From Elusimicrobiota bacterium (GTDB lineage: Bacteria > Elusimicrobiota > UBA8919), in contig JBDRIG010000007.1 in NCBI GenBank assembly GCA_043816185.1, positions 1 through 24,196 on the forward strand: a stretch of DNA of 24,196 nucleotides. Reading direction: 5' to 3'. The notes below the pieces were generated by a model. It was not told the DNA's origin. It did no database searches and worked only from the letters and a program-made list of their open reading frames with translations. How positions within the stretch are numbered: the stretch's first letter is position 1; every line of letters starts with the position of its first letter. The position numbers were made by a program, and so were the translations under genes. Positions 959 to 24,067 of the stretch are shown in pieces.

Positions 959-2569
959 ATGAAAAGGTTTTTGCTGATTATTTTTTTTGTTGGGTTTTAC
1001 TCAAATGTCTTTGCTTCAAGCATAAGTGGAGGAACGCTACTGAAACAATTTGTTGGTGGCCGTGCCTCATCAATGGGTGAGGCATTCGTAGCAATATCCG
1101 ACGACCTGTACGGACTTCATTACAATCCAGCAGGAATGGTTAATTTGAAACGGGATTTTACTGCCACATATTTTCAGGAGCCAGATATTGGTTTTAATTA
1201 TGGATTGTTTGGTTATGGGCAGAGTTTTAAGAAATTAGGTGTACTTGCTGGCAGTGTGTATATGTACGATGCAGGAACAATTGATTGGGAAGATGAAAAC
1301 GGGAATGCATCAAAATTAAATGTCCAGCGAGATTATCTTTTTACTTTTGGATATTCAAAAGAAATTTTAGAGGACTTTTCAGTAGGAATTAATACTAAAC
1401 TTTTTTCTTCCACAATAATAGAAAAATATCACGCTACGGCATATGGAATGGATATAGGGGGATTTTATAGTACTCCCATAAATGGACTAACTACTGGAAT
1501 AGTTATGCAGAATATAGGTACTCCAATCAAATATATAAAAAAAGCAGACCCGATGCCTACAACTTTCCGAGCGGGTATAGCATATCGACTAAGTATGCCA
1601 AGAAAAAGTAAATTAACGGTTGACTTAGATGTTGTAAAGCCAAACGATAGTGATACTAAAGAAAATGTTGGTTTTGATTACTGGGTAAATGATTTATTGA
1701 GTGTAAGAGGTGGATATAAATTTGGTTACGATTTAGAAAGTTATAGTTTGGGTTTTGGAATAAAATTGTCTGCAATTCAAATTGATTATGGTATTGTATC
1801 ACGAAAAGATTTAGGTTTTCTTCATGTTGTTTCGGTAAGTTTAGGGGAGCCGATAAAAAAAGATAGAAAAAAAACTTCATCTGCTGATGTTACAACAGCT
1901 GCATTAGAATATGTTGATATTGTAGTGCCTCCACCAGAAAAAACACGAAAAGAAAAAATAAAATTTTTGCTTGATAATGTTGACGATTTATGTAAAAAAG
2001 GATTGTATTTGGATGCATTAAAAAAAGTTAACGAATTGCTTGAGATGGATTCTACCGATAGCAACTGGCAAAAGTTAGAAATACAACTTAAAAAAATTGC
2101 TGAAATTATTCCATTTGATATAGAAAGTGGTAAGGTTCATGATTTAGTTAGGAAAAGTATTTCTGCATATTTAGGCAAAGAACAAGATGGGCGAATTGCT
2201 GTGTTAGCAATTTGTTATGCTTGGCAAACAGAACCAGAAAACAAAATTGTAATAGAAGTATTACAATTTATGAAACGAGAATATCCGAGTATGGCAAAAG
2301 AAGAAATGGCAACAGAAAAGGAAACGATTGTTGACCAAAAACTTGATTGGGCACTTGATTACACACACAATGGTGAACATAGGAAGGCAATCGCGGAATG
2401 TGAAGATATATTGGTGTTGGAGCCCGACAATGATTTAGCATTCAAAATGGCTGGTTCGGCATATTTTGCTTTGGGAAACAAGACCATGGCACGAAAAATG
2501 TGGCAACGAGCCAGAAGAGTAAATCCAAAAGACCCCGAAATAAATGGGCTTTTACGAGAAGTAAAGTAG
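959..2569 (+). CDS. PorV/PorQ-family outer-membrane beta-barrel fused to C-terminal TPR repeats
   Basis: Signal peptide, GGRASSMGEAFVAISDD..GLHYNPAG PorV-like N-terminal motif, alternating beta-strand pattern, then helical TPR-like repeats (AFKMAGSAYFALGNKTMARKMWQRA). Confidence 0.75.
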   Translation: MKRFLLIIFFVGFYSNVFASSISGGTLLKQFVGGRASSMGEAFVAISDDLYGLHYNPAGMVNLKRDFTATYFQEPDIGFNYGLFGYGQSFKKLGVLAGSVYMYDAGTIDWEDENGNASKLNVQRDYLFTFGYSKEILEDFSVGINTKLFSSTIIEKYHATAYGMDIGGFYSTPINGLTTGIVMQNIGTPIKYIKKADPMPTTFRAGIAYRLSMPRKSKLTVDLDVVKPNDSDTKENVGFDYWVNDLLSVRGGYKFGYDLESYSLGFGIKLSAIQIDYGIVSRKDLGFLHVVSVSLGEPIKKDRKKTSSADVTTAALEYVDIVVPPPEKTRKEKIKFLLDNVDDLCKKGLYLDALKKVNELLEMDSTDSNWQKLEIQLKKIAEIIPFDIESGKVHDLVRKSISAYLGKEQDGRIAVLAICYAWQTEPENKIVIEVLQFMKREYPSMAKEEMATEKETIVDQKLDWALDYTHNGEHRKAIAECEDILVLEPDNDLAFKMAGSAYFALGNKTMARKMWQRARRVNPKDPEINGLLREVK

Positions 2570-2599
2570 TGCGATTTTATAACGAACAAGTTCAATGTG

Positions 2600-2962
2600 T
2601 TAGTGCAACACCGTGTCTATTTTTTTGCTCACAGTACACTTGCCTTCAAGAACAGCACCTTCCTGAATAGAGAGCGTTTGTGCTTCTATATTGCCTACAA
2701 CCCTGGCAGTTGAAAAAAGTTCAAGTGTATTTAAGACAGTAACATTACCAGAGACCTCGCCACCAACTGCAACATCTTCAGCGTTCAGATTGCCTCCAAC
2801 CTTTCCAGTTTTTCCAACGATAACTCCGGTGGCTTTCAATATGTGCCCGAGAATTTCACCGTCCACACGAATGGTTCCATCGGATGTGATATCGCCTTCC
2901 ACTTTAGTACCTTTTGCGATGATGGTTTCAATTTTTCCGATTGTTTCTTTTTTCCCGAACAT
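2600..2962 (-). CDS. Bactofilin (polymer-forming cytoskeletal protein, CcmA family)
   Basis: TIIAKGTKVEGDI..DGTIRVDGEILG...V.GNI....LSIQEGAVLEGKC beta-helix pattern; GGAGG SD upstream. Confidence 0.92.
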   Translation of the reverse strand: MFGKKETIGKIETIIAKGTKVEGDITSDGTIRVDGEILGHILKATGVIVGKTGKVGGNLNAEDVAVGGEVSGNVTVLNTLELFSTARVVGNIEAQTLSIQEGAVLEGKCTVSKKIDTVLH

Positions 2963-2974
2963 TTTTACCTCCGG

Positions 2975-3054
2975 ATAGAGTTTATAGAGTTATTGGGTTG
3001 TAGAGTTGTCCGTGGTTTTAACTCAACAAACTCAACAAACCCAATAACCCTACA
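2975..3054. repeat. Inverted tandem array of degenerate 8-9-mers
   Basis: atagagttt atagagtt attgggtt gtagagtt faces aactcaaca aactcaaca aacccaat aaccctac. Confidence 0.75.
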
Positions 3055-3060
3055 TCGCTT

Positions 3061-3972
3061 TTATTTTAATATTGCTTCTGTTAGATATTTTTCCGGATTT
3101 TGTGCACGACCATTTTTCCATATTTCATAGTGAATATGAGGAGCTGTTGCACAACCAGTAGAACCGACGAGCCCAATTGTCTGACCTCTTTTAACTTTCT
3201 GCCCATGTTTTACAAGAATCTTTGAGCAATGTCCATATCTCGTAATAAAACCACATCCGTGCTCAACAACAATAAGTTTCCCGTAGCCCGGCTGCCAATC
3301 GGCAAGTTTTACCTCACCGTCGGCGGGAGATTTTATAGGGTCGCCTCTGTCCGCGGCAATATCAATAGCAAGATGCATTTCTTTATATCCATTTATCGGG
3401 TGAATACGGGGACCGAAATTGCAGGTTATTCTTCCATAACAGGGCCATCGGCTTGGTGTTGCCAACCATCTCGATTTTTCAGATTTTATGAACTCGCTTG
3501 AGTTGTCAAAACTTTTTTTGAGTTCCTGCGTTTCTGCCGTGAGGGCAAATAGATGCTGATTGAACTCTTGCGGAGTGATTGAAGGTTTTTTTTCAGATAG
3601 ATATTTTGTGATTCTCTCAAGTTCGCCGACGGTAGGCCCACCTGACAGAATAATCGCTTTTTTGCTTTTAAGCCCGAGCATTTTTCTTATTTCCCTGTCA
3701 ATCTCTCTCAAATTGTCAGCCATCTGTCTTGTCTGAAGCATTTCTTTTGCAAAATATTCCGTCTCTTTTATGAGAATCTTGTTTTCCGTTTTCATCGCCC
3801 AGTAGTCAATCTGTTTGTGAATAATAACTCCAGCCCAAACCACAATCCCCAAAAAAATAAAAAACAGCGAGGCAAGAAACTCTTTTGAAACATCAAAAGT
3901 AATCGTCTTTGATGCTGAATGTGGCACTATCATCACCGTCAGCATTTTGTGTCTTGTTTTTTTTATTCTCAT
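3061..3972 (-). CDS. M23 family metallo-endopeptidase with N-terminal TM helix and coiled coil
   Basis: HLAID (HxxxD) and PHIHYE (HxH) zinc motifs, GYGKLIVVEHG..FITRYGH, TM segment near the N-terminus. Confidence 0.93.
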   Translation of the reverse strand: MRIKKTRHKMLTVMIVPHSASKTITFDVSKEFLASLFFIFLGIVVWAGVIIHKQIDYWAMKTENKILIKETEYFAKEMLQTRQMADNLREIDREIRKMLGLKSKKAIILSGGPTVGELERITKYLSEKKPSITPQEFNQHLFALTAETQELKKSFDNSSEFIKSEKSRWLATPSRWPCYGRITCNFGPRIHPINGYKEMHLAIDIAADRGDPIKSPADGEVKLADWQPGYGKLIVVEHGCGFITRYGHCSKILVKHGQKVKRGQTIGLVGSTGCATAPHIHYEIWKNGRAQNPEKYLTEAILK

Positions 3973-4010
3973 AAAATCCTCCGATAAAAGATAAATCGCT
4001 ATCCATTACA

Positions 4011-4039
4011 AGTATAAAAAAAAATTTCTGTTTTGTCAA
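4011..4039 (-). promoter_or_regulatory. sigma70-type promoter for the M23-bactofilin operon
   Basis: Minus strand reads TTGACA-17 bp-TATACT. Confidence 0.7.
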
Positions 4040-4048
4040 GAATTTTTG

Positions 4049-4077
4049 TTGATTTTTGTAAAGAAAACTGATAAAAT
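4049..4077 (+). promoter_or_regulatory. sigma70-type promoter (extended -10) for valS
   Basis: TTGATT-17 bp-TAAAAT preceded by TGn; ATG follows after 8 nt. Confidence 0.55.
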
Positions 4078-4085
4078 ACAATATC

Positions 4086-7052
4086 ATGGAAATTTCTAAA
4101 ATTTACGAACCGAAAGAAGTAGAAGCAAAATGGCTGAAAGAATGGGAAGAAAAAAAACTTTTTCATTCAGAGATAGATAGCCAAAAAATTCCATTTACTG
4201 TTGTCATTCCGCCACCGAATGTTACTGGCTCACTTCACATCGGACACGCCTTAAACAATCTTTTGCAGGATATAATTATTCGTTTCAAAAGAATGAATGG
4301 TTTTAATGCTTGCTGGGTACCCGGTACTGATCACGGTGGAATCGCCACTCAAAATGTTATTGAAAAGGAATTAAAAAAGAACGGCAAAAAACGAGATGAT
4401 TTTACAAGAGAAGAATTCACAAAAATTATGGTGGATTGGGCGCAAAAAACCAGCAGCACAATTTTAAGTCAATTAAAAAAAATGGGATGCTCGTGCGACT
4501 GGGATAAAACCGCATTTACGATGGACGAAAAGCGGGCAAAAGCAGTTAATTATGCATTCATCAAACTTTATGAAAAAGGACTAATTTATAGAGACACCAG
4601 ATTTGTTGATTGGTGTCCAAGATGCGAAACGGCATTAAACGAAAGTGAGGTTGAGCAGGAAGATGAAAAAGGCAAACTTTGGTATATTAAATATCCGATA
4701 GAAGTGGGATGTAGCGGTGAGATTGCTATCCCATCTTTCTTACACGATTTTATCACTGTCGCTACAACCCGCCCTGAAACAATGCTTGGCGACACTGCTG
4801 TCGCCGTAAATCCAAACGACGAAAGATATAAAGATCTTATAGGCAAAAATGTCATACTGCCATTAGTCAATCGCATAATTCCGATAATTGCTGACGAAAC
4901 GGTTGATATGAAATTCGGAACCGGAGCAGTAAAGATTACGCCTTCACACGACCTCAACGACGACGCTATGGCAAAAAGGCATAATCTCATCTACATAGGT
5001 GTAATTGACAAAAAAGCAAAAATCACATCAAATATAATGCTTGATTTAAAAAAGGAGTTGATAAAAGATAGTGAGGTCGCAGACATAGTTGGAAAAGACA
5101 GAGACGAAGCAAGAAAAATTCTAATAGAGCGATTAGAAGAAAAACAATTTTTAGAAAAAGAAGAAAATTACACGGGTCCCAAAAAAAGATGTTATCGTTG
5201 TAATACAATTGTTGAATCGTTTAATTCCGAGCAATGGTTTCTGAAAATGTCAGATATGGCAAAGAGGGCAATAGATGCTGCGAAAAATGGGGAAACAAAA
5301 TTTTTTCCAGATAAGTGGCTGAAACCATATCTTTTGTGGCTTGAAAACTTAAAGGACTGGTGCATTTCTCGTCAGATATGGTGGGGGCATCGGATACCGT
5401 TATGGTACTGTTCACGAGCGAAGTCATTGCTCGTTGTTGTAGCGGCGGATGTAAATCCGCTGTCATTGCGAGAGCAAATCCCGAAGCAATCTTGTTGTTG
5501 TAGCGGCGGATGTAAATCCGCTGTCATTGCGAGAGCAAATCCCGAAGCAATCTCATTTTGTTCACCAATACCTTCTGTAGAAAAACCGGAAAAATGTCCA
5601 AATTGTGGTGATACTAATTTAACACAGGATTCAGATGTATTGGATACTTGGTTTTCGTCGGCACTTTGGCCAATGTCCGTTTTCGGCTGGGCATGTACAG
5701 ACGAGAAAGTTCGGAGTAGTGGCAAGGTTCCCATGTCTGACAGTCCCGATACATCGGGGCAACTACCAACTGATTTATCTTACTATTATCCAACAAATGT
5801 TTTAGTTACAGGGCATGAAATACTTTATCTATGGGTTGCGCGAATGATAATGATTGGGCTGGAGTTTGAAAATCAAGTGCCTTACAGTGATGTTTATATT
5901 CACGGAATTGTCAGAGATTCGCACGGCAAAAAGATGTCAAAATCGCTTGGGAATGTAATTGATCCTCTGACAATTATGGAAAAATACGGAACCGACGCTT
6001 TAAGGTTTGCTCTTGCATACCAAGGAATACCCGGCAGAGACATGCAAATTGCCGACGAAAATTTTGTAATGGCAAGAAATTTTACAAACAAACTTTGGAA
6101 TGTTTCAAGATTTGTTCTGATGAATATTGGTAACGGTTTAGAGTTTAGAGAACTTAGTTTAGAGAAAAATCAAGTAGTTATCTCTCAACTCTCAACTCTC
6201 AACTCTCAACTTGAATTAACCGATAAATGGATTTTATCAGAATTAAACCTAACAATAAAAAATGTTACGCAGGCAATAGAAAATTATAATTCAGCGGAGG
6301 CATCACGGCTTTTGTACGAATTTATCTGGTCAAAATATTGCGATTGGTATGTTGAGTTTTCAAAAATTCGGTTATACGGAACTGACGAAAAATCAAAATT
6401 AGTAACGCAAAAGGTTCATTCCGAAGTTATTGAAAACATATTAAAGCTTCTCCATCCGATAATGCCATTTATCACGGAGGAGATTTTTCAGAGTTTGCCA
6501 GGACAGAAAAAAAACATTATGGTTTCCGATTATCCGAAACTTGACGAAACAAAAATAAACGAAATCGCAGAAAGAGAAATTCAAAAAGTGATAGATATAA
6601 TCACTGCTATACGAAACATCCGTTCCGTTATGAATGTAAAATTATCAGACACTGTGGATATTGTAATAAAAATATCTTCAGAAGAAACAGAAAAAATTAT
6701 TTCTGAAAACAGACAATACATAAACTCACTCGCAAAAGTAAAAGATATAGCGTTTGTAAAAGGAGTCCATTCGGAACAAAAACCCGAACTATCAGTATCA
6801 GCGATTGTAGGAGATGTAGAAATTTTTATTATACTTTCAGGGAAAATTGACATTGAATTAGAAAAAAAACGGCTTGGGGCACAGATACTAAAAATGGAGC
6901 AGGAACTGAAAATATACGAAACCAAATTGTCTAATAAAAATTTTGTAGAAAAAGCGGATCAGAAAGTAGTGGAGGAGATTAAATACAAATATCATGAAGC
7001 GAAGGAAAAGAAAAACAAAATCGAGATAATTCTCAAAAATCTTGGAGGTTGA
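4086..7052 (+). CDS. valS: Valine--tRNA ligase with in-frame repeat-derived insertions
   Basis: PPPNVTGSLHIGH, VATTRPETMLGD, DWCISRQIWWGHRIP, DVLDTWFSS, KMSKS and a C-terminal coiled coil. Confidence 0.98.
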   Translation: MEISKIYEPKEVEAKWLKEWEEKKLFHSEIDSQKIPFTVVIPPPNVTGSLHIGHALNNLLQDIIIRFKRMNGFNACWVPGTDHGGIATQNVIEKELKKNGKKRDDFTREEFTKIMVDWAQKTSSTILSQLKKMGCSCDWDKTAFTMDEKRAKAVNYAFIKLYEKGLIYRDTRFVDWCPRCETALNESEVEQEDEKGKLWYIKYPIEVGCSGEIAIPSFLHDFITVATTRPETMLGDTAVAVNPNDERYKDLIGKNVILPLVNRIIPIIADETVDMKFGTGAVKITPSHDLNDDAMAKRHNLIYIGVIDKKAKITSNIMLDLKKELIKDSEVADIVGKDRDEARKILIERLEEKQFLEKEENYTGPKKRCYRCNTIVESFNSEQWFLKMSDMAKRAIDAAKNGETKFFPDKWLKPYLLWLENLKDWCISRQIWWGHRIPLWYCSRAKSLLVVVAADVNPLSLREQIPKQSCCCSGGCKSAVIARANPEAISFCSPIPSVEKPEKCPNCGDTNLTQDSDVLDTWFSSALWPMSVFGWACTDEKVRSSGKVPMSDSPDTSGQLPTDLSYYYPTNVLVTGHEILYLWVARMIMIGLEFENQVPYSDVYIHGIVRDSHGKKMSKSLGNVIDPLTIMEKYGTDALRFALAYQGIPGRDMQIADENFVMARNFTNKLWNVSRFVLMNIGNGLEFRELSLEKNQVVISQLSTLNSQLELTDKWILSELNLTIKNVTQAIENYNSAEASRLLYEFIWSKYCDWYVEFSKIRLYGTDEKSKLVTQKVHSEVIENILKLLHPIMPFITEEIFQSLPGQKKNIMVSDYPKLDETKINEIAEREIQKVIDIITAIRNIRSVMNVKLSDTVDIVIKISSEETEKIISENRQYINSLAKVKDIAFVKGVHSEQKPELSVSAIVGDVEIFIILSGKIDIELEKKRLGAQILKMEQELKIYETKLSNKNFVEKADQKVVEEIKYKYHEAKEKKNKIEIILKNLGG
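5433..5553 (+). repeat. Tandem duplication (period 61 nt) of a composite GTAG-REP plus GTCATTGCGAG element inside valS
   Basis: gttgttgtagcggcggatgtaaatccgctgtcattgcgagagcaaatcccgaagcaatct is identical at 5433-5492 and 5494-5553. Confidence 0.95.
6136..6210. repeat. Inverted heptamer tandem array inside valS
   Basis: gtttaga x2, gaactta, gtttaga ... ctctcaa x4. Confidence 0.9.
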
Positions 7053-7059
7053 AAAAAAA

Positions 7060-7638
7060 TTGTCAAAAAAAATTAATATTGTTCTTGCGACTCAAAATAA
7101 AGATAAAATCAAAGAAATTGAAAAGATTCTTGGCAATCAATTTACAATCATCAAATTAAAAAAATTTCCAGACATAACTGAAGACGGAGAAACACTTAAA
7201 GAAAACGCTATAAAAAAAGCAAAAGCAATTTTCGAAATTACAAAAATAACGACACTTGCCGACGATAGTGGATTGGAAGTTAAAGCACTTAAAGGAAAAC
7301 CCGGTGTCCGTTCGGCAAGGTTTGCCGGAGAAAACTGTAGTTATGCCGATAACAATAAAAAACTTCTTAAACTCTTGAAAAATGTTCCATACAAAAAACG
7401 AAAAGCAAAATTCAGGACGGTCGTTGCCATAATTTTTCCTAATGGCAGAATAAAAACAACTGAAGGTTCTGTTTCCGGCTACATCACGGTAGAAACGAAA
7501 GGCAAAAACGGTTTTGGTTACGATCCCATTTTTTATTATCCAAAATTAAAAAAAACTTTTTCTCAACTTACAACGGCACAGAAAAACGAGATAAGTCATA
7601 GGGCAATTGCCTTCAAAAAAGCAAAAAAAATAATATAG
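7060..7638 (+). CDS. rdgB: Non-canonical purine NTP pyrophosphatase (RdgB/HAM1)
   Basis: LATQNKDKIKE, ENAIKKA, ADDSGLEV, PGVRSARFAG, GFGYDPIF, SHR motif. TTG start at 7060 behind GGAGG; the ORF track starts at 7042. Confidence 0.95.
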   Translation: MSKKINIVLATQNKDKIKEIEKILGNQFTIIKLKKFPDITEDGETLKENAIKKAKAIFEITKITTLADDSGLEVKALKGKPGVRSARFAGENCSYADNNKKLLKLLKNVPYKKRKAKFRTVVAIIFPNGRIKTTEGSVSGYITVETKGKNGFGYDPIFYYPKLKKTFSQLTTAQKNEISHRAIAFKKAKKII

Positions 7639-8069: not shown

Positions 8070-8168
8070 TGATATGTGATTGAAAGTTTAACTCGTGAAC
8101 TCGTGAACACAGGAACGCACTTTTTCAGTTTTGGATGCCGTTGTCATGCCGTGTCATAATCCAAAAAT

Positions 8169-8285
8169 GTAGTTGCCGAGCTTGCTCGGCGGTAGTTGCC
8201 AATCTTGATTGGCTTTACCATCTTTTTATTAGCCGACCAAGGTCGGCAACTACAATATTATTAGCCGACCAAGGTCGGCAACTAC
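8169..8285. repeat. Cluster of four GTAG-type REP palindromes (two forward, two reverse)
   Basis: GTAGTT-GCCGAG-CTTG-CTCGGC (8169-8190), GTAGTT-GCCAAT-CTTG-ATTGGC (8192-8213), and reverse-strand GTAGTT-GCCGAC-CTTG-GTCGGC at 8232-8253 and 8264-8285. Confidence 0.9.
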
Positions 8286-13825: not shown

Positions 13826-14019
13826 TCTGGGATGATATAAGGTGAGAGGCATTAAAGGGCGCTCGGGAATAAGTTTCTTTGAGACGCTCGTCAGAACTCG
13901 CTCTGCAATGAGGAAGATTGTCGTTGCAACAATCTATCATTCAGACTGTGTCGCAATTATTTTAAGTTACCATCGGTGTGCGGATGAAAAAAATCAGCAG
14001 GGAGTCGTTCGAATTTAAT

Positions 14020-16032: not shown

Positions 16033-17811
16033 ATGATGTTGAAATTACTGATATGGTTATATGCTGGTATGTTGATATGTGAAAAAATAAAATTACTGAT
16101 ATGGAAAATGATATGGAAAAACAGCATTGTTGTATCATTGTGTCGCCATATTACCGTCGTTGCTCTACATCGTCATATCACCGTTTGTATTTTGTTTATC
16201 ACTTATTGTCTAATACTTGCTACGCACAATCTTCATTCTATTGAGACAAAAATAATCAATATAGTAAAAGAGAATTCAAACATTTCATCGGCTCCACTTT
16301 CGGTTCCACTTTTTTTTGTTCATGAAATGGGATATTTATTTGTTGATGACATTGCAAAAATTTATCATGCAAAAATCAATTGGTTCCCATTATCAAAGAA
16401 AATTGTATTCACGCTAAATAATAAAGAAATAGTTTTTAATATTGATTCGAAAAAAGTTATAGTTGATAAAATAGAACGGCAGATGAACAAGCCAACGATA
16501 ATGTTAGACAACAAACTTTTAGTACCTCTTGAATTTGTGATCGCAAAGTCGTTTGCTGGTGTAACCGAATTTTATACTAACTGGGATAGCAATCATCTAA
16601 CATTGCGACTTTCGATTATTCCGGATATTTTTTTACCGAAATATTATTCTTATAAAGACGGAACACGTCTTATAGTTCAGATGGTTGAAAAAAAAGAGTT
16701 TCAAATTGATTCATCAAAAGAAAAAAAATTTGCAGTAAAAATTTATAAAAGTAAAATTGCGGATATTAAAAAATTTCCAATTACAGTAGATGACGGTGTT
16801 GTTGATACTATTGATGTGGCCAATTTAGAACGAGATGTTTTGTTTACAATAAATCTTAGTACCTATTCAGGGAAAATAGAAACATCTACGCTAACATCTC
16901 CGTTTCGTCTTGTGGTTGATATATTTAGAACTGGCGAGATGTCGTCAAAATTTGTTGGTTCTATATCTGAAATTGCACCGTCGACGACAAGTTTCTTGCC
17001 TAGTAGATTAGTCGCAGGTGAAGTGACAAATATACCGTCAAGTATTTCTCCGGTATTGTCAGATGTTGAAGAAAAAACTCCAGACATTAAAATCAACGAA
17101 ATAAAAAAACCAAAATCAACGAGAGCAGTTTGTAGTCTTAAAAAAATTGTTATCGATGCTGGTCACGGTGGCCATGATCCTGGTGCAATAGGACAAAAAG
17201 CAACAAGGGAAAAGAATATAAATCTTGCTATCGCTAATCAATTAGCATCAATTTTAAAGAAGAATGGTTATGATATTTTTATGACGAGATCAGACGATAC
17301 ATTTGTTCCACTTTCTGAAAGAACGAAGTTTGCCAATAAGGTTATGGCTGACTTGTTTGTAAGTATTCACTGTAATGCCTCTATCTCTACCAATGTTCGC
17401 GGATTTGAAATTTATTTTTTGTCGGAGAAGGCAACTGATAGTGCTGCCGAAGCAGTTGCCAATATGGAAAATTCTGTCCTCGCACTCGAAAAAACCCAAT
17501 TTTCTGCCGAAAAAGATATAAAAAAACTTCTTCTTTCAATGGCGGTAAACGAATTTATAAATGAGTCATCGTTTTTATGTGGAGTTATCAATCAAAAAGT
17601 TTGTAAAAATTTTTCTAATTTGGATGTTAAAAGTGTTAAACAGGCGAATTTTTATATTTTAAGAGGGGCTACAATGCCTGCTATTTTGGTTGAAGTTGGA
17701 TTTCTGTCAAATATTAAAGAAGAAAAACTTCTCAATAATGAAAAATTTCAGAAAAAGATGGCAGAAAATATTTTTAATGGAATAAAAGAATATGAAAAAC
17801 GGCTTAAATAA
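16033..17811 (+). CDS. N-acetylmuramoyl-L-alanine amidase (Amidase_3) with N-terminal stalk/AMIN-like domains; start uncertain
   Basis: IVIDAGHGGHDPGA, REKNINL, FVSIHCNA, PAILVEVGFLSN; PFRLVVDI AMIN-like end. Confidence 0.92.
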   Translation: MMLKLLIWLYAGMLICEKIKLLIWKMIWKNSIVVSLCRHITVVALHRHITVCILFITYCLILATHNLHSIETKIINIVKENSNISSAPLSVPLFFVHEMGYLFVDDIAKIYHAKINWFPLSKKIVFTLNNKEIVFNIDSKKVIVDKIERQMNKPTIMLDNKLLVPLEFVIAKSFAGVTEFYTNWDSNHLTLRLSIIPDIFLPKYYSYKDGTRLIVQMVEKKEFQIDSSKEKKFAVKIYKSKIADIKKFPITVDDGVVDTIDVANLERDVLFTINLSTYSGKIETSTLTSPFRLVVDIFRTGEMSSKFVGSISEIAPSTTSFLPSRLVAGEVTNIPSSISPVLSDVEEKTPDIKINEIKKPKSTRAVCSLKKIVIDAGHGGHDPGAIGQKATREKNINLAIANQLASILKKNGYDIFMTRSDDTFVPLSERTKFANKVMADLFVSIHCNASISTNVRGFEIYFLSEKATDSAAEAVANMENSVLALEKTQFSAEKDIKKLLLSMAVNEFINESSFLCGVINQKVCKNFSNLDVKSVKQANFYILRGATMPAILVEVGFLSNIKEEKLLNNEKFQKKMAENIFNGIKEYEKRLK

Positions 17812-19993: not shown

Positions 19994-20086
19994 ATTTATA
20001 TTTTTTTATGTTTATTTGCTGTCAGCAACTGTAACACTACTTCGTTAAATTCAGTTCGTCATTGCAAGTGCTTTTGCCCGTCATTG

Positions 20087-20201
20087 AGATTGTGTCGCAA
20101 TGGGCTAAAAAGTTGCATTTTTATAGAAGATAGCAACTGATGATAAAATATGGTACTGCAATCAAACATTAGATGATAAAAGATGGATTGCGACACAGTC
20201 T
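20087..20201. mobile_element. 115-bp MITE with 15-bp TIRs and apparent CATTG target duplication
   Basis: cattg|AGATTGTGTCGCAAT ... ATTGCGACACAGTCT|cattg, TIRs match 14/15. Confidence 0.85.
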
Positions 20202-20360
20202 CATTGCGAGCGACAGCGAGGCAATCTCGGTTTTCAACACAGGGATTGCCACGTCGTCCCGATTAATTGAGACTCTCACAGTGACCATGAATATAAAATA
20301 GGTTGTCAGTACCCTATACACCTTGTTTACAAATTCAAAAAAATTTTGTAAAATAAAAAT

Positions 20361-23026: not shown

Positions 23027-23126
23027 TAGCGCCACTCCGTCAAGTAATTCATTTATATTCATGGTCATTGCGGTGGCGAAGCCCGAAGCAATCTCGAACT
23101 GGACTGAACTTAACGAAGTAGTATTA
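23027..23126. mobile_element. Degenerate TIR-bounded element carrying a GTCATTGCG...GAAGCAATC core
   Basis: tagcgccactccgtcaagt ... acttaacgaagtagtatta imperfect inverted ends; core at 23064-23094. Confidence 0.6.
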
Positions 23127-23870: not shown

Positions 23871-23907
23871 AATGTTAAGTAAAGCGTTCTACCTTGTGGG
23901 ATTATTG

Positions 23908-24067
23908 AAACTGTGTCGCAATAGCAAAATGTCCGTTATTGCGAGCGAAGCTAAGCAATCTTGAAATTCAACTTCAACACAGAGATTGCCGCGAGTCCTG
24001 CGTGTAATACTTCACAATTTCTGTGTTTTGGACAAAGACGAGTTTGCTTCGCTGTCGCCCGCAATGG
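23908..24067. repeat. Composite repeat: TGTGTCGCAAT TIR plus GT(C/T)ATTGCGAG palindromic element
   Basis: aaactgtgtcgcaat; gttattgcgagcgaagctaagcaatc; ttcaacacagagattgccgcg; inverted arm gagtttgcttcgctgtcgcccgcaatgg (24040-24067). Confidence 0.75.

What the first reader, a model, noticed from the sequence alone, without database searches (positions are those of the whole stretch)
4700..6210. Essential valS carries four in-frame insertions from several palindromic repeat families
Seen: four DNA-structured segments lie in valS without breaking the frame. (1) 4700-4740 is a gggatgtagc...gctatccc hairpin. (2) 5416-5558 is a duplicated REP+GTCATTGCGAG unit. (3) 5716-5766 is a GTAGTGGC...GCAACTAC palindrome. 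(4) 6136-6210 is an inverted heptamer array. Segments 2-4 have relatives in intergenic spacers of this window (8169-8285, 20201-20228, 23064-23094, 2975-3054). Established: these positions fall between conserved ValRS motifs (YP..VATTRPE, WYC..CPxC, GW..YYP, MN..DKWIL), and Rickettsia palindromic elements set a precedent for selfish repeats becoming peptide loops. Inference: several non-autonomous families invade one aminoacyl-tRNA synthetase at tolerant loops, a multi-family peptide-creating system that may be undescribed in this lineage.
Basis: partly seen in the sequence, partly recalled or inferred. Interest (0 to 1): 0.85.

Follow-up and report, generated by a model that had tools for sequence, protein, structure and literature searches.

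The report
Repeat DNA translated inside valS loops
The valine-tRNA synthetase gene of an uncultured Elusimicrobiota bacterium carries four in-frame stretches of the genome's own hairpin and tandem-repeat DNA in four floppy loops, a Rickettsia-like case of selfish repeats tolerated inside an essential protein.

Summary
valS (4086-7052, +) is intact, matches the valine--tRNA ligase model and is under purifying selection. It has four extra in-frame segments compared with Thermus ValRS and with empty relatives. An AlphaFold2 model gives pLDDT below 50 in exactly these four segments.

- **Site 2:** a composite of a GTAG-headed REP hairpin plus a CATTGCGAG..GCAATC palindrome, duplicated as a 61-nt unit whose two copies are read in different frames.
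- **Site 3:** ends in a clean GTAGTTGCC REP, the same kind as four copies in the spacer at 8169-8285.
- **Site 4:** two imperfectly complementary heptamer arrays.
- **Site 1:** a real 10-aa insertion with a modest hairpin, but no other copy in the genome.

Relatives leave the same loops empty or fill them with other repeats. Heptamer and octamer arrays also sit in frame in many housekeeping enzymes, and the sister species has many repeat-derived indels. One REP-associated transposase passes its model cut-off, a second lies just under it; each is flanked by REPs.

This is RPE-like tolerated selfish DNA, not a dedicated system. In-frame REPs and RPEs are in print, and this scan has noted in-frame heptamer arrays in other phyla. 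The new points are the lineage, the multi-family nesting and the reuse of loops. No RNA or protein data were available to show translation.

The parts
4086..7052 (+). valS, valine--tRNA ligase, 988 aa, intact
   Evidence: ORF. NCBIfam NF004349 1113 bits, cut-off 704. 1GAX E 2.4e-199. Outside the four loops dN/dS is about 0.10 against the same-genus ortholog (dN 0.077, dS 0.784).
4704..4742 (+). Site 1: about 10-aa insertion with an imperfect hairpin (4706-4732). No family assigned; possibly a decayed remnant.
   Evidence: Loop is 20 aa against 9-10 baseline. pLDDT below 50 at aa 209-219. Fold z -2.9. No other copy in the genome. Relatives carry heptamer or octamer arrays at this exact place.
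5412..5558 (+). Site 2: 147-nt (49-codon) composite insert between Cys442 and Cys492 of the zinc-knuckle region
   Evidence: Query 447-488 is unaligned to 1GAX. pLDDT below 50 at aa 446-490. DNA alignment with relatives.
5412..5418 (+). Single TCACGAG unit: apparent remnant of the TTCACGAG 8-mer array that relatives carry at this site
   Evidence: the same-genus ortholog L002, C90 and L009 have 3-4 units at the same position, directly after WYC(KN).
5433..5553 (+). 61-nt unit in two tandem copies. The copies are read in different frames, giving two unlike peptides.
   Evidence: TRF period 61, 2.0 copies, 100%. Also repeat finder D4 and the translation. A 91-nt public contig spans the unit-to-unit junction.
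5439..5460 (+). GTAG-headed REP hairpin (GTAGCGGC + 6-bp stem), copy 1. Copy 2 is at 5500-5521.
   Evidence: Near copies in spacers at C39:18160, C45:19199 and C103:17219.
5464..5491 (+). CATTGCGAG..GAAGCAATC palindrome, copy 1. Copy 2 is at 5525-5552.
   Evidence: 31 strict copies in the genome, 28 of them outside ORFs of 200 aa or more. The window has 4 against 0 expected.
5700..5768 (+). Site 3: 22-aa insert (bounds +/- 6 nt). Degenerate GTAG start at 5716; intact inverted REP at the right end.
   Evidence: 22-residue gap against 1GAX. Loop is 32 aa against 10. pLDDT below 50 at aa 539-558. Whole-segment fold is not significant, z -0.33.
5745..5766 (-). GTAGTTGCC REP hairpin (6-bp stem) inside site 3
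   Evidence: Same head as the four REPs at 8169-8285 and as C87:2345.
6136..6211 (+). Site 4: two imperfectly complementary heptamer arrays (left TTTAGAG-type 6136-6165, right CTCTCAA x4.3 6182-6211), adding about 13 aa
   Evidence: TRF. Fold z -2.35. pLDDT below 50 at aa 688-700. The exact reverse complement of the right arm has stop codons in all three frames, and the left arm is open only in the frame used. The same unit occurs at C50:14299 and C64:8490.
8169..8285 (.). Intergenic cluster of four GTAGTTGCC REPs (two forward, two inverted)
   Evidence: the repeat finder D13, I6 and I8. Fold z -9.2.
8090..8108 (+). Intergenic AACTCGTG 8-mer array, the reverse complement of the TTCACGAG family
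   Evidence: TRF and pattern search.
20202..20226 (+). Intergenic CATTGCGAG..GCAATC palindrome. Further copies at 23066-23093 and 23937-23960.
2975..3044 (+). Intergenic inverted 8/9-mer arrays (ATAGAGTT x4, AACTCAACA x2.8), same architecture as site 4
   Evidence: TRF. Fold z -3.8.

Best explanation
valS is a working single-copy synthetase gene. Four of its surface loops have been colonised by the genome's own short repeat DNA, which is now read through by the ribosome as disordered peptide.

**Shown**
- The four segments are insertions.
- They consist of, or contain, members of dispersed repeat families: GTAG REP hairpins, the CATTGCGAG..GCAATC palindrome, and heptamer or octamer arrays.
- The frame is kept.
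- The rest of the gene is under purifying selection.
- Relatives use the same loops for other repeats or leave them empty.

**Inferred**
- The REP parts were copied in by a REP-associated tyrosine transposase (RAYT), acting on single-stranded hairpins.
- The arrays spread by an unknown copy-and-paste step and then grow or shrink by slippage.
- New repeats tend to land in or beside old ones, giving nesting at site 2. A loop once opened therefore stays a slot whose content turns over.
- Only copies that are stop-free, a multiple of three in total length, and in loops that tolerate extra residues survive.
- The peptides themselves have no function.
For: **The segments are insertions in disordered loops.**
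- Gaps against 1GAX fall at all four places.
- Loop lengths exceed baseline.
- The only four AlphaFold2 segments with pLDDT below 50 are aa 209-219, 446-490, 539-558 and 688-700; mean pLDDT is 81.3.

**The origin is DNA, not protein.**
- The 61-nt unit is 100% duplicated and read in two frames.
- G001's site 4 holds a 32-nt GTAG REP three times, in three frames.

**The repeats belong to dispersed families.**
- 31 strict palindrome copies, 28 of them outside long ORFs.
- 99 GTAG-headed hairpins, against 38-58 for six control tetramers.
- TTCACGAG dimers: 43 in G001 against 1 for the reversed control, 13 against 0 in G000, and 0 against 3 in G003.

**A candidate enzyme is present.**
- C39 encodes a RAYT (NF047646, 88.1 bits, cut-off 80) flanked by 6 GTAGGGCA REPs.
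- C59 encodes a second RAYT-like gene (73.2 bits, below cut-off) flanked by GTAGGGG REPs.

**Loops are reused.**
- 10 of 12 distinct ValRS at 60% identity or more have at least one of sites 1, 3 or 4 expanded.
- Sister sequences L010 and L011 (dN 0.031, dS 0.50) differ by two inserts.
- Sites 1-3 of relatives hold different units.

**Nesting at site 2.** C7 and L002 share a TCACGAG unit, the GTCATTGC start and the GAAGCAATCTCAT end.

**A translation filter is visible.**
- 63 of 72 intragenic arrays have a stop-free consensus on the coding strand.
- Only 36 of 72 do on the other strand; 56% is expected at random.

**The gene is functional.** dN/dS is about 0.10.

**The pattern is genome-wide.**
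- 73 of 98 period-7/8 arrays lie in ORFs of 200 aa or more, against a base-level background of 80%.
- 19 of 20 such ORFs tested have Pfam families, 18 of them ordinary enzymes.
- In G001, 37 of 57 species-specific indel segments have another copy, against 63 of 561 controls.
Against: - No RNA or protein data exist, so translation of the inserts is inferred only from an open frame and stop avoidance.
- Site 1 has no family, and its hairpin is modest.
- Site 3 as a whole folds no better than shuffles.
- The REPs flanking the two RAYT genes have other heads (GTAGGGCA, GTAGGGG) than those in valS (GTAGCGGC, GTAGTTGCC). No cognate enzyme is therefore identified.
- No terminal inverted repeats or target duplications could be shown for the arrays. 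Array units in G000 are very diverse: mostly singletons among 64 strict arrays. That also fits growth in place.
- In G000, only 2 of 57 species-specific indel segments have another genomic copy, fewer than controls at 66 of 565. In this genome valS is an exception rather than the rule for REP-type inserts.
- Low pLDDT is partly expected where only the query has residues in the alignment.
Confidence: 0.69

Rival explanations
1. The repeats grew in place. The four loops are ordinary, loosely constrained linkers. Tandem arrays and small hairpins arise there by replication slippage, template switching and gene conversion, without any transposition.
For: - Array units in G000 are mostly unique to their locus.
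- Even baseline-length site 4 loops of relatives are made of short repeats.
- RibE carries the same 8-mer at the same site in two genera, at 3 against 7.4 units, which looks like slippage.
- No target duplications or defined ends were found.
- An earlier scan note (e1-1319656) reached this reading on another genome.
Against: - Site 2 and site 3 hold GTAG REPs and a palindrome that have near copies in spacers on other contigs.
- The identical TTCACGAG unit sits at three sites of one valS and at about 18 loci of G001, against 1 hit for the reversed control.
- RAYT genes are present.
Confidence: 0.17
2. The structures are kept by selection, not merely tolerated. Hairpins in the mRNA or DNA at junctions between ValRS domains slow the ribosome to help folding, or the extra loops give the enzyme a new contact.
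For: - All four sites lie between structural blocks of the model.
- They are occupied again and again in relatives by sequences that differ yet mostly form hairpins.
Against: - Close relatives with empty loops exist: L003, L010.
- Neither sequence nor peptide is conserved.
- Hairpins are imperfect and weak, z -2.3 to -2.9, and site 3 is not significant.
- 63 of 72 more distant ValRS have baseline loops.
Confidence: 0.07
3. The inserts are not translated. They are skipped by ribosome bypassing, as in the phage T4 gene 60 gap, or cut out of the RNA or protein.
For: - Mobile hairpin elements that ribosomes skip exist. I saw only the abstract of bioRxiv 10.1101/2022.08.31.505936, in the listing.
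- No expression data are available here.
Against: - All four inserts are multiples of three and stop-free.
- The left arm of site 4 departs from the complement of the right arm, which would carry stops in all three frames, and stays open in the frame used.
- Intragenic arrays are filtered for stop-free units on the coding strand.
- No Rfam intron or other RNA family lies in valS: 3 matches in the window, all tRNA.
- The inserts, 30-147 nt, are far too small for inteins.
Confidence: 0.04
4. Artefact or dead gene. The repeats were placed in valS by misassembly. Alternatively this copy is a decaying paralogue, and the second valS of the assembly (contig C90) does the work.
For: - The assembly holds two valS, C7 and C90, at 78% identity.
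- Repeats break this assembly: 22 of 81 matches of the 125-nt element lie within 400 nt of a contig end.
Against: - Public contigs identical to the window, spread over three studies, cover site 1, both junctions of site 2 and site 3.
- dN/dS is about 0.10, and every column invariant in the 23-sequence alignment is kept.
- C90 repeats not only valS but also its neighbours, at about 60-80% identity in the longer matches.
- C90 groups with another genus in the tree. It looks like a co-binned relative.
Confidence: 0.03

Closest known systems
Rickettsia palindromic elements (RPE; Ogata et al. 2000 and 2002, read only as summarised in passages of the review PMC10969869)
   Same: Non-autonomous palindromic repeats from several families, inserted in frame in unrelated housekeeping genes and thought compatible with protein fold.
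   Different: - RPEs are about 150 bp and each family encodes a conserved peptide. Here the pieces are 22-61 nt, nested and duplicated, and read in different frames.
- The lineage is different (Elusimicrobiota), and tandem heptamer arrays are involved.
- Four sites lie in one gene, and the same sites are reused in relatives.
Intragenic GTAG- and CGTC-tagged REPs (Di Nocera et al. 2013, PMC3733652, passages read) and REPIN/RAYT systems (Bertels and Rainey 2011, PMC3116915, passages read)
   Same: - GTAG head plus a short GC-rich stem.
- Mostly extragenic, with a minority wholly inside ORFs.
- Dimers encode 20-30 aa.
- RAYT genes are flanked by REPs.
   Different: - The REP subfamilies in valS are low-copy (about 4-8).
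- They are not the ones flanking the RAYT genes found.
- One is fused to a second kind of palindrome and tandemly duplicated.
- That paper reports REPs mainly in replication and repair genes, and did not cover Elusimicrobia (0 occurrences of the word).
Heptameric simple-sequence repeats of Xanthomonas and Nostoc (Rehm et al. 2015, PMC4692102, passages read). Also the small dispersed repeats nested in cyanobacterial heptamers (Elhai et al. 2008), which I did not read: seen only in a reference list and named in an earlier scan note; the paper is not held.
   Same: Dispersed arrays of about four 7-nt units; lineage-specific units.
   Different: - Those arrays are G-rich, quadruplex-forming and under-represented in coding regions.
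- Here they are not G-rich and often come as two imperfectly complementary arms.
- Here they are about as frequent in ORFs (73 of 98) as expected from the 80% of bases in ORFs.
In-frame heptamer arrays noted earlier by this scan in Omnitrophota and Patescibacteria genomes
   Same: The same architecture, in loops of housekeeping enzymes, with different units at the same site in relatives.
   Different: - Another phylum.
- Here arrays are combined with REPs and a second palindrome in one gene.
- Those notes are unchecked AI notes, not publications.

Membership tests
Rickettsia palindromic elements (RPE) | Repeat inserted in frame in a protein-coding gene | tested here: met
   Four inserts, open frame 4086-7052.
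Rickettsia palindromic elements (RPE) | Each family encodes a conserved peptide (as stated in the review) | tested here: not met
   - The two 61-nt copies are read in two frames.
- No other protein shares the peptides; the best other match over aa 425-575 is 56% identical.
Rickettsia palindromic elements (RPE) | Element of about 150 bp with sequence similarity to RPE families of Rickettsia | not tested
   No RPE sequence was compared. The pieces here are 22-61 nt and the host is Elusimicrobiota.
GTAG REP / REPIN mobilised by RAYT | GTAG tetranucleotide at one end followed by a short GC-rich palindrome | tested here: met
   - 5439-5460, 5500-5521 and 5745-5766 (-) all have 6-bp stems.
- Genome-wide there are 99 GTAG hairpins against 38-58 for control heads.
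GTAG REP / REPIN mobilised by RAYT | Multi-copy, predominantly extragenic family | tested here: inconclusive
   - Only about 4-8 copies per subfamily: GTAGTTGCC has 5 other copies; the GTAGCGGC type has 3 near copies.
- The other copies are in spacers.
GTAG REP / REPIN mobilised by RAYT | RAYT gene in the genome, flanked by REPs | tested here: met
   - C39: NF047646 88.1 bits, cut-off 80, with 2 + 4 flanking REPs.
- C59: 73.2 bits, below cut-off.
GTAG REP / REPIN mobilised by RAYT | The RAYT is flanked by the same REP subfamily as the copies in question | tested here: not met
   - Flanking REPs are GTAGGGCATGGC.. and GTAGGGG... Those in valS start GTAGCGGC and GTAGTTGCC.
- The assembly is 94% complete, so a third RAYT may be missing.
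GTAG REP / REPIN mobilised by RAYT | Inverted doublet (REPIN) | tested here: inconclusive
   Site 3 has a GTAG start at 5716 and an inverted REP at 5745-5766. The left half has no stem, and the whole does not fold better than shuffles.
CGTC-tagged REP | CGTC tetranucleotide heading the palindrome | tested here: inconclusive
   Copies of the CATTGCGAG..GCAATC palindrome are preceded by CGTC, TGTC, GGTC or other letters. The valS copies have TGTC.
MITE | Terminal inverted repeats and target-site duplication | tested here: inconclusive
   A recurrent CTGA(C/T) right flank and GA(C/T) left flank occur at sites 1 and 3 of relatives. Part of this is native sequence of empty alleles. No clear duplication was found.
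Phase-variable simple-sequence contingency locus | Repeat-number change switches a dispensable, usually surface or restriction gene on and off | tested here: not met
   The host gene is the only valS of its organism. It is under purifying selection. No length variants appeared in the public contigs (table 4: none).
Intron, intein or bypass element | Recognisable RNA family, or splicing or bypass signals; no need for an open frame | tested here: not met
   - No Rfam match in valS.
- All inserts are in frame and stop-free.

The most novel reading that the evidence does not exclude
Protein loops act as long-lived landing pads for hairpin DNA. Once a loop of an essential enzyme is opened, new repeats preferentially land in or overwrite the resident repeat. 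These are REPs, a second palindrome, and a so far undescribed class of foldback elements built from two imperfectly complementary heptamer or octamer arrays. The slot then persists across genera, while its content turns over faster than synonymous sites saturate. The periodic mismatches between the two arms would be the footprint of selection against stop codons. The arrays would be moved by an enzyme not yet identified.
Probability: 0.2. Interest if true: 0.75.

Novelty: new variant of a known kind. Interest (0 to 1): 0.5.

Why it matters
The finding shows how far an essential, highly conserved enzyme can absorb junk DNA. About 85 extra residues from at least three kinds of repeat sit in four loops, while the rest of the protein stays under strong constraint.

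The lineage offers natural filled and empty alleles of the same loops. These can be used to test how insertions are tolerated, and whether repeats target older repeats. They may also show what moves heptamer arrays, which have no known mechanism.

There is a practical side. Such inserts inflate gene lengths, break assemblies and create spurious 'lineage-specific' peptides in metagenome annotation.

Tried and rejected
**Expression data.** The look-up of sequencing runs listed no RNA holder. Only Logan contigs of DNA runs could be laid, and these cannot show transcript ends or levels. No listed identical contig covered site 4.

**Copies of site 1.** blastn-short found none longer than 17 nt.

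**Strict unit families of arrays in G000.** They were mostly singletons, so I could not define element consensus or ends.

**Target duplications.** The recurrent CTGA(C/T) flank is partly native sequence. I dropped it as evidence.

**Perfect-stem test on indels between G000 and G001.** Enrichment was only modest: stems of 8 bp or more in 17 of 114 inserts against 64 of 1126 controls.

**Literature.**
- 'Elusimicrobia + repeats + insertions + palindromic' gave 1 unrelated paper.
- The STRR/heptamer/ORF search gave 2 unrelated papers.
- Elhai et al. 2008 is not held.

**Readings considered and rejected.**
- Phase variation: the host is an essential gene.
- Intein or intron: the inserts are too small and there is no Rfam match.

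**Pfam on C17:144-1559,** which contains a REP doublet, gave nothing. I do not count it as an intragenic case.

**The array at C50:14299** lies at the very start of the stop-to-stop ORF tested, whose only domain is ORF6N. By eye another frame there reads like an amidotransferase, but I did not test it.


Full report
**What the window is.** The window is contig C7 of a 1.44-Mb, 34% G+C assembly of 112 contigs. The closest public ValRS genes belong to MAGs named Elusimicrobia or Elusimicrobiota, several with Rifle, Crystal Geyser or UBA-type names. The neighbourhood is ordinary housekeeping. It includes bactofilin, an M23 peptidase, valS, a Ham1 family protein, a PilZ protein, PNPase, shikimate pathway genes, an amidase, SecA, NAD synthase and three tRNAs.

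**The gene.** valS runs from 4086 to 7052 on the + strand and encodes 988 aa.
- It scores 1113 bits on NCBIfam NF004349, cut-off 704.
- It matches Thermus thermophilus ValRS (1GAX) at E 2.4e-199.
- Outside the four loops, dN/dS against the same-genus ortholog is about 0.10 (dN 0.077, dS 0.784).

It is therefore a working gene.

The assembly holds a second valS on contig C90, 78% identical. C90 also repeats the neighbouring genes, at about 60-80% amino-acid identity in the longer matches. In a tree built without the loops, C90 groups, with weak support, with another genus. I read C90 as a co-binned relative, not a paralogue.

**The four insertions.**
- The alignment with 1GAX is gapped or broken at exactly four places.
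- Loop lengths between fixed anchors are 20/74/32/32 aa in the window. The baseline is 9-10/34-53/10/18-19 aa in 63 of the 72 distinct ValRS below 60% identity.
- An AlphaFold2 model built on a 23-sequence alignment has mean pLDDT 81.3. Its only segments below 50 are aa 209-219, 446-490, 539-558 and 688-700, that is, the four inserts.
- Caveat: low confidence is partly expected where only the query has residues in the alignment.

**What each insert is made of.**

*Site 2 (5412-5558, 49 codons between Cys442 and Cys492).*
- It starts with a single TCACGAG unit.
- A 61-nt unit then follows twice at 100% identity.
- Each unit holds a GTAG-headed hairpin (5439-5460, 5500-5521).
- Each also holds a CATTGCGAG..GAAGCAATC palindrome (5464-5491, 5525-5552).
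- Because 61 is not a multiple of three, the two copies give two unlike peptides. The repeat is therefore DNA, not protein.
- The palindrome family has 31 strict copies in the genome, 28 of them outside ORFs of 200 aa or more. The other three are the two in valS and one doubtful match on C45. The window has 4 matches against 0 expected.
- The hairpin has near copies in spacers on C39, C45 and C103.

*Site 3.* It ends in a clean GTAGTTGCC hairpin on the minus strand (5745-5766). Four hairpins with the same head lie in the spacer at 8169-8285. The left half is degenerate, and the segment as a whole folds no better than shuffles (z -0.33).

*Site 4.* It consists of a TTTAGAG-type array and a CTCTCAA x4.3 array. 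The same unit occurs in two other places in the genome.

*Site 1.* This is a true 10-aa insertion with an imperfect hairpin (z -2.9), but it has no other copy. Relatives carry arrays at this exact spot, so it may be a decayed remnant. That is a guess.

**Is the assembly right?** Public contigs identical to the window (0 differences), spread over three runs from three studies, cover several parts.
- One run covers site 1 (4685-4838) and site 3 (5662-6034).
- Contigs of all three runs reach the left junction of site 2 (for example 5308-5462), and one reaches its right junction (5524-5667).
- A 91-nt contig (5433-5523) runs from unit 1 into unit 2.

One of these runs may be the source sample. Site 4 was not covered by a listed identical piece.

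**Relatives.** Among 12 distinct ValRS at 60% identity or more, 10 have at least one of sites 1, 3 or 4 expanded. Only the window and its same-genus relative G001 have all three.

The contents differ.
- G001 has TTCACGAG 8-mer arrays, with an imperfectly complementary second arm, at sites 1, 2 and 3.
- G001 also has a 32-nt GTAG REP three times in tandem at site 4, read in three frames.
- Other genomes use TTCTCAAG, GGAAGTC/CCACTTA, CGAAGTC or other units.
- L003, L004, L010 and L018 have empty sites 1 and 3 that share the same native sequence.

The sister pair L010 and L011 (dN 0.031, dS 0.50) differs by two inserts.

At site 2 the window and G001 share three things: the TCACGAG unit, the GTCATTGC start and the GAAGCAATCTCAT end. 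This points to one old insertion that was later nested into, trimmed and duplicated.

**Not only valS.**
- Tandem Repeats Finder gives 98 arrays of period 7 or 8 in the genome. Of these, 73 lie inside stop-to-stop ORFs of 200 aa or more, close to the 80% of bases that such ORFs cover.
- Of 20 such ORFs tested, 19 have Pfam families and 18 are ordinary enzymes. They include the AICARFT/IMPCHase bienzyme, a class-I glutamine amidotransferase, a family-28 glycosyltransferase (MurG type), TGT, AdoHcyase, a lumazine-binding protein, alanyl-tRNA synthetase and the PheRS beta chain.
- The TTCACGAG family is dispersed: 43 dimer matches in G001 against 1 for the reversed control, 13 against 0 in G000, 10 against 1 in G005 and 0 against 3 in G003.

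I sampled 564 kb of G001.
- It gave 272 reciprocal-best ORF pairs with G000, at median identity 78.5%.
- These contain 167 internal indels of 5 aa or more.
- Of the 57 G001-specific segments of 8-60 aa, 37 have another copy in the sample, against 63 of 561 matched controls.
- In G000 the figure is only 2 of 57, against 66 of 565.

REP-type invasion of genes is therefore heavy in the sister species and light in the window's genome. valS stands out in this genome.

**Signs that the inserts are translated.**
- All four are multiples of three and stop-free.
- Of 72 intragenic arrays, 63 have a consensus that is stop-free in all frames on the coding strand. Only 36 do on the opposite strand, and 56% is expected for random units.
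- At site 4 the exact complement of the right arm would carry TGA in all three frames. The actual left arm differs from it and is open only in the frame used. This may explain why the two arms are imperfect complements.
- No RNA or protein data could be had.

**Mechanism.** The genome encodes one RAYT that passes the NCBIfam equivalog cut-off (C39, 88.1 bits against 80), flanked by six GTAGGGCA REPs. A second RAYT-like gene lies just below cut-off (C59, 73.2 bits), flanked by GTAGGGG REPs. There is also an IS200-type TnpA on C95.

RAYT-mediated copying is the published model for GTAG REPs (passages of PMC3733652 and PMC3116915). It is my inference for the REP parts. The subfamilies in valS are not the ones beside these genes, so the link is not shown.

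For the arrays I found no ends, no target duplication and no enzyme. Copy-and-paste is indicated by identical units at many loci, and slippage by unit-number differences at orthologous sites.

**Comparison with what is known.**
- RPEs of Rickettsia are the functional model (review passages). The defining conserved peptide is not met here, so this is not an RPE.
- Intragenic GTAG and CGTC REPs encoding 20-30 aa are described in several species. Sites 2 and 3 are new members of that kind.
- This scan has noted in-frame heptamer arrays before, in Omnitrophota and Patescibacteria. Those are unchecked notes, but they show that the pattern is not confined to this phylum.
- My searches found nothing on this in Elusimicrobia.

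**Verdict.** The finding is a new variant of a known kind and of moderate interest.

Noticed in passing
G000 contig C90 (locus L103) 1786-7365, against window 2618-7635: A second, syntenic copy of the bactofilin / M23 peptidase / valS / Ham1 block, at about 60-80% amino-acid identity in the longer matches. Its valS is 78% identical and groups with another genus in the tree. It is probably a co-binned relative inside a bin rated 0.54% contaminated.
   Followed up: partly
window 20076-20205; partial copies near 13936-13957 and 23901-23922: A MITE-like element of about 125 nt with inverted ends (AGATTGTGTCGCAAT / ATTGCGACACAGTCT).
- 77 copies of 100 nt or more on 56 contigs, median identity 92%; only 2 lie in long ORFs.
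- 22 of 81 matches are within 400 nt of a contig end, so it breaks the assembly.
- It is often directly followed by the CATTGCGAG..GCAATC palindrome.
- No Rfam match.
   Followed up: partly
window 16033-16120 (start of the Amidase_3 gene 16033-17811); similar starts on C65:3781, C70:2908, C84:1793, C89:12365: The N-terminal 30-60 residues of several proteins of roughly 450-600 aa are built from 8-mer arrays (TGATATGT and relatives) that encode hydrophobic, signal-peptide-like sequence. Other secreted-looking proteins have T-rich heptamer arrays in the same place.
   Followed up: no
G000 C39:19169-19900 (locus L101) and C59:6115-6560 (locus L102): Two REPtron-like loci.
- A 159-aa RAYT (NF047646, 88.1 bits) with 2 upstream and 4 downstream GTAGGGCATGGCTTTAGCCATGC REPs.
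- A 167-aa RAYT-like gene (73.2 bits, below cut-off) flanked by GTAGGGG REPs.
   Followed up: partly
G000 C50, minus-strand ORF labelled C50|-|32138|36266 (offsets on the reverse strand): A 364-aa insertion compared with the G001 ortholog. It begins with Cys and ends in His-Asn directly before Ser, so it looks like an intein with an endonuclease part. It was seen only in the indel list.
   Followed up: no
G001 loci L155, L179, L162, L161, L164, L185, L170, L184: The sister species carries the same hairpin elements in frame in many different genes.
- A 12-bp-stem element read as ..LEMSHRDTVSLTG.. occurs in at least two G001 genes, and a related copy in one G000 gene.
- Another is read as ..NPALPEKTFRKGWV..
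- A GTAGGTTCGCC REP is read in various frames.
   Followed up: partly
window 5433-5553: The two 61-nt units are identical, so loss or gain of one unit by slippage would shift the frame of an essential gene. The duplication must be recent. It should impose a mutational load unless it is quickly resolved.
   Followed up: no
G000 C55:18335-19630 against G001 C32 (locus L120): Orthologous glycosyltransferases carry different repeats at the same loop. G000 has a TTACGAC x4.4 array. G001 has TTCACGAG x4 plus a second arm with a nested hairpin. This is another reused slot.
   Followed up: partly
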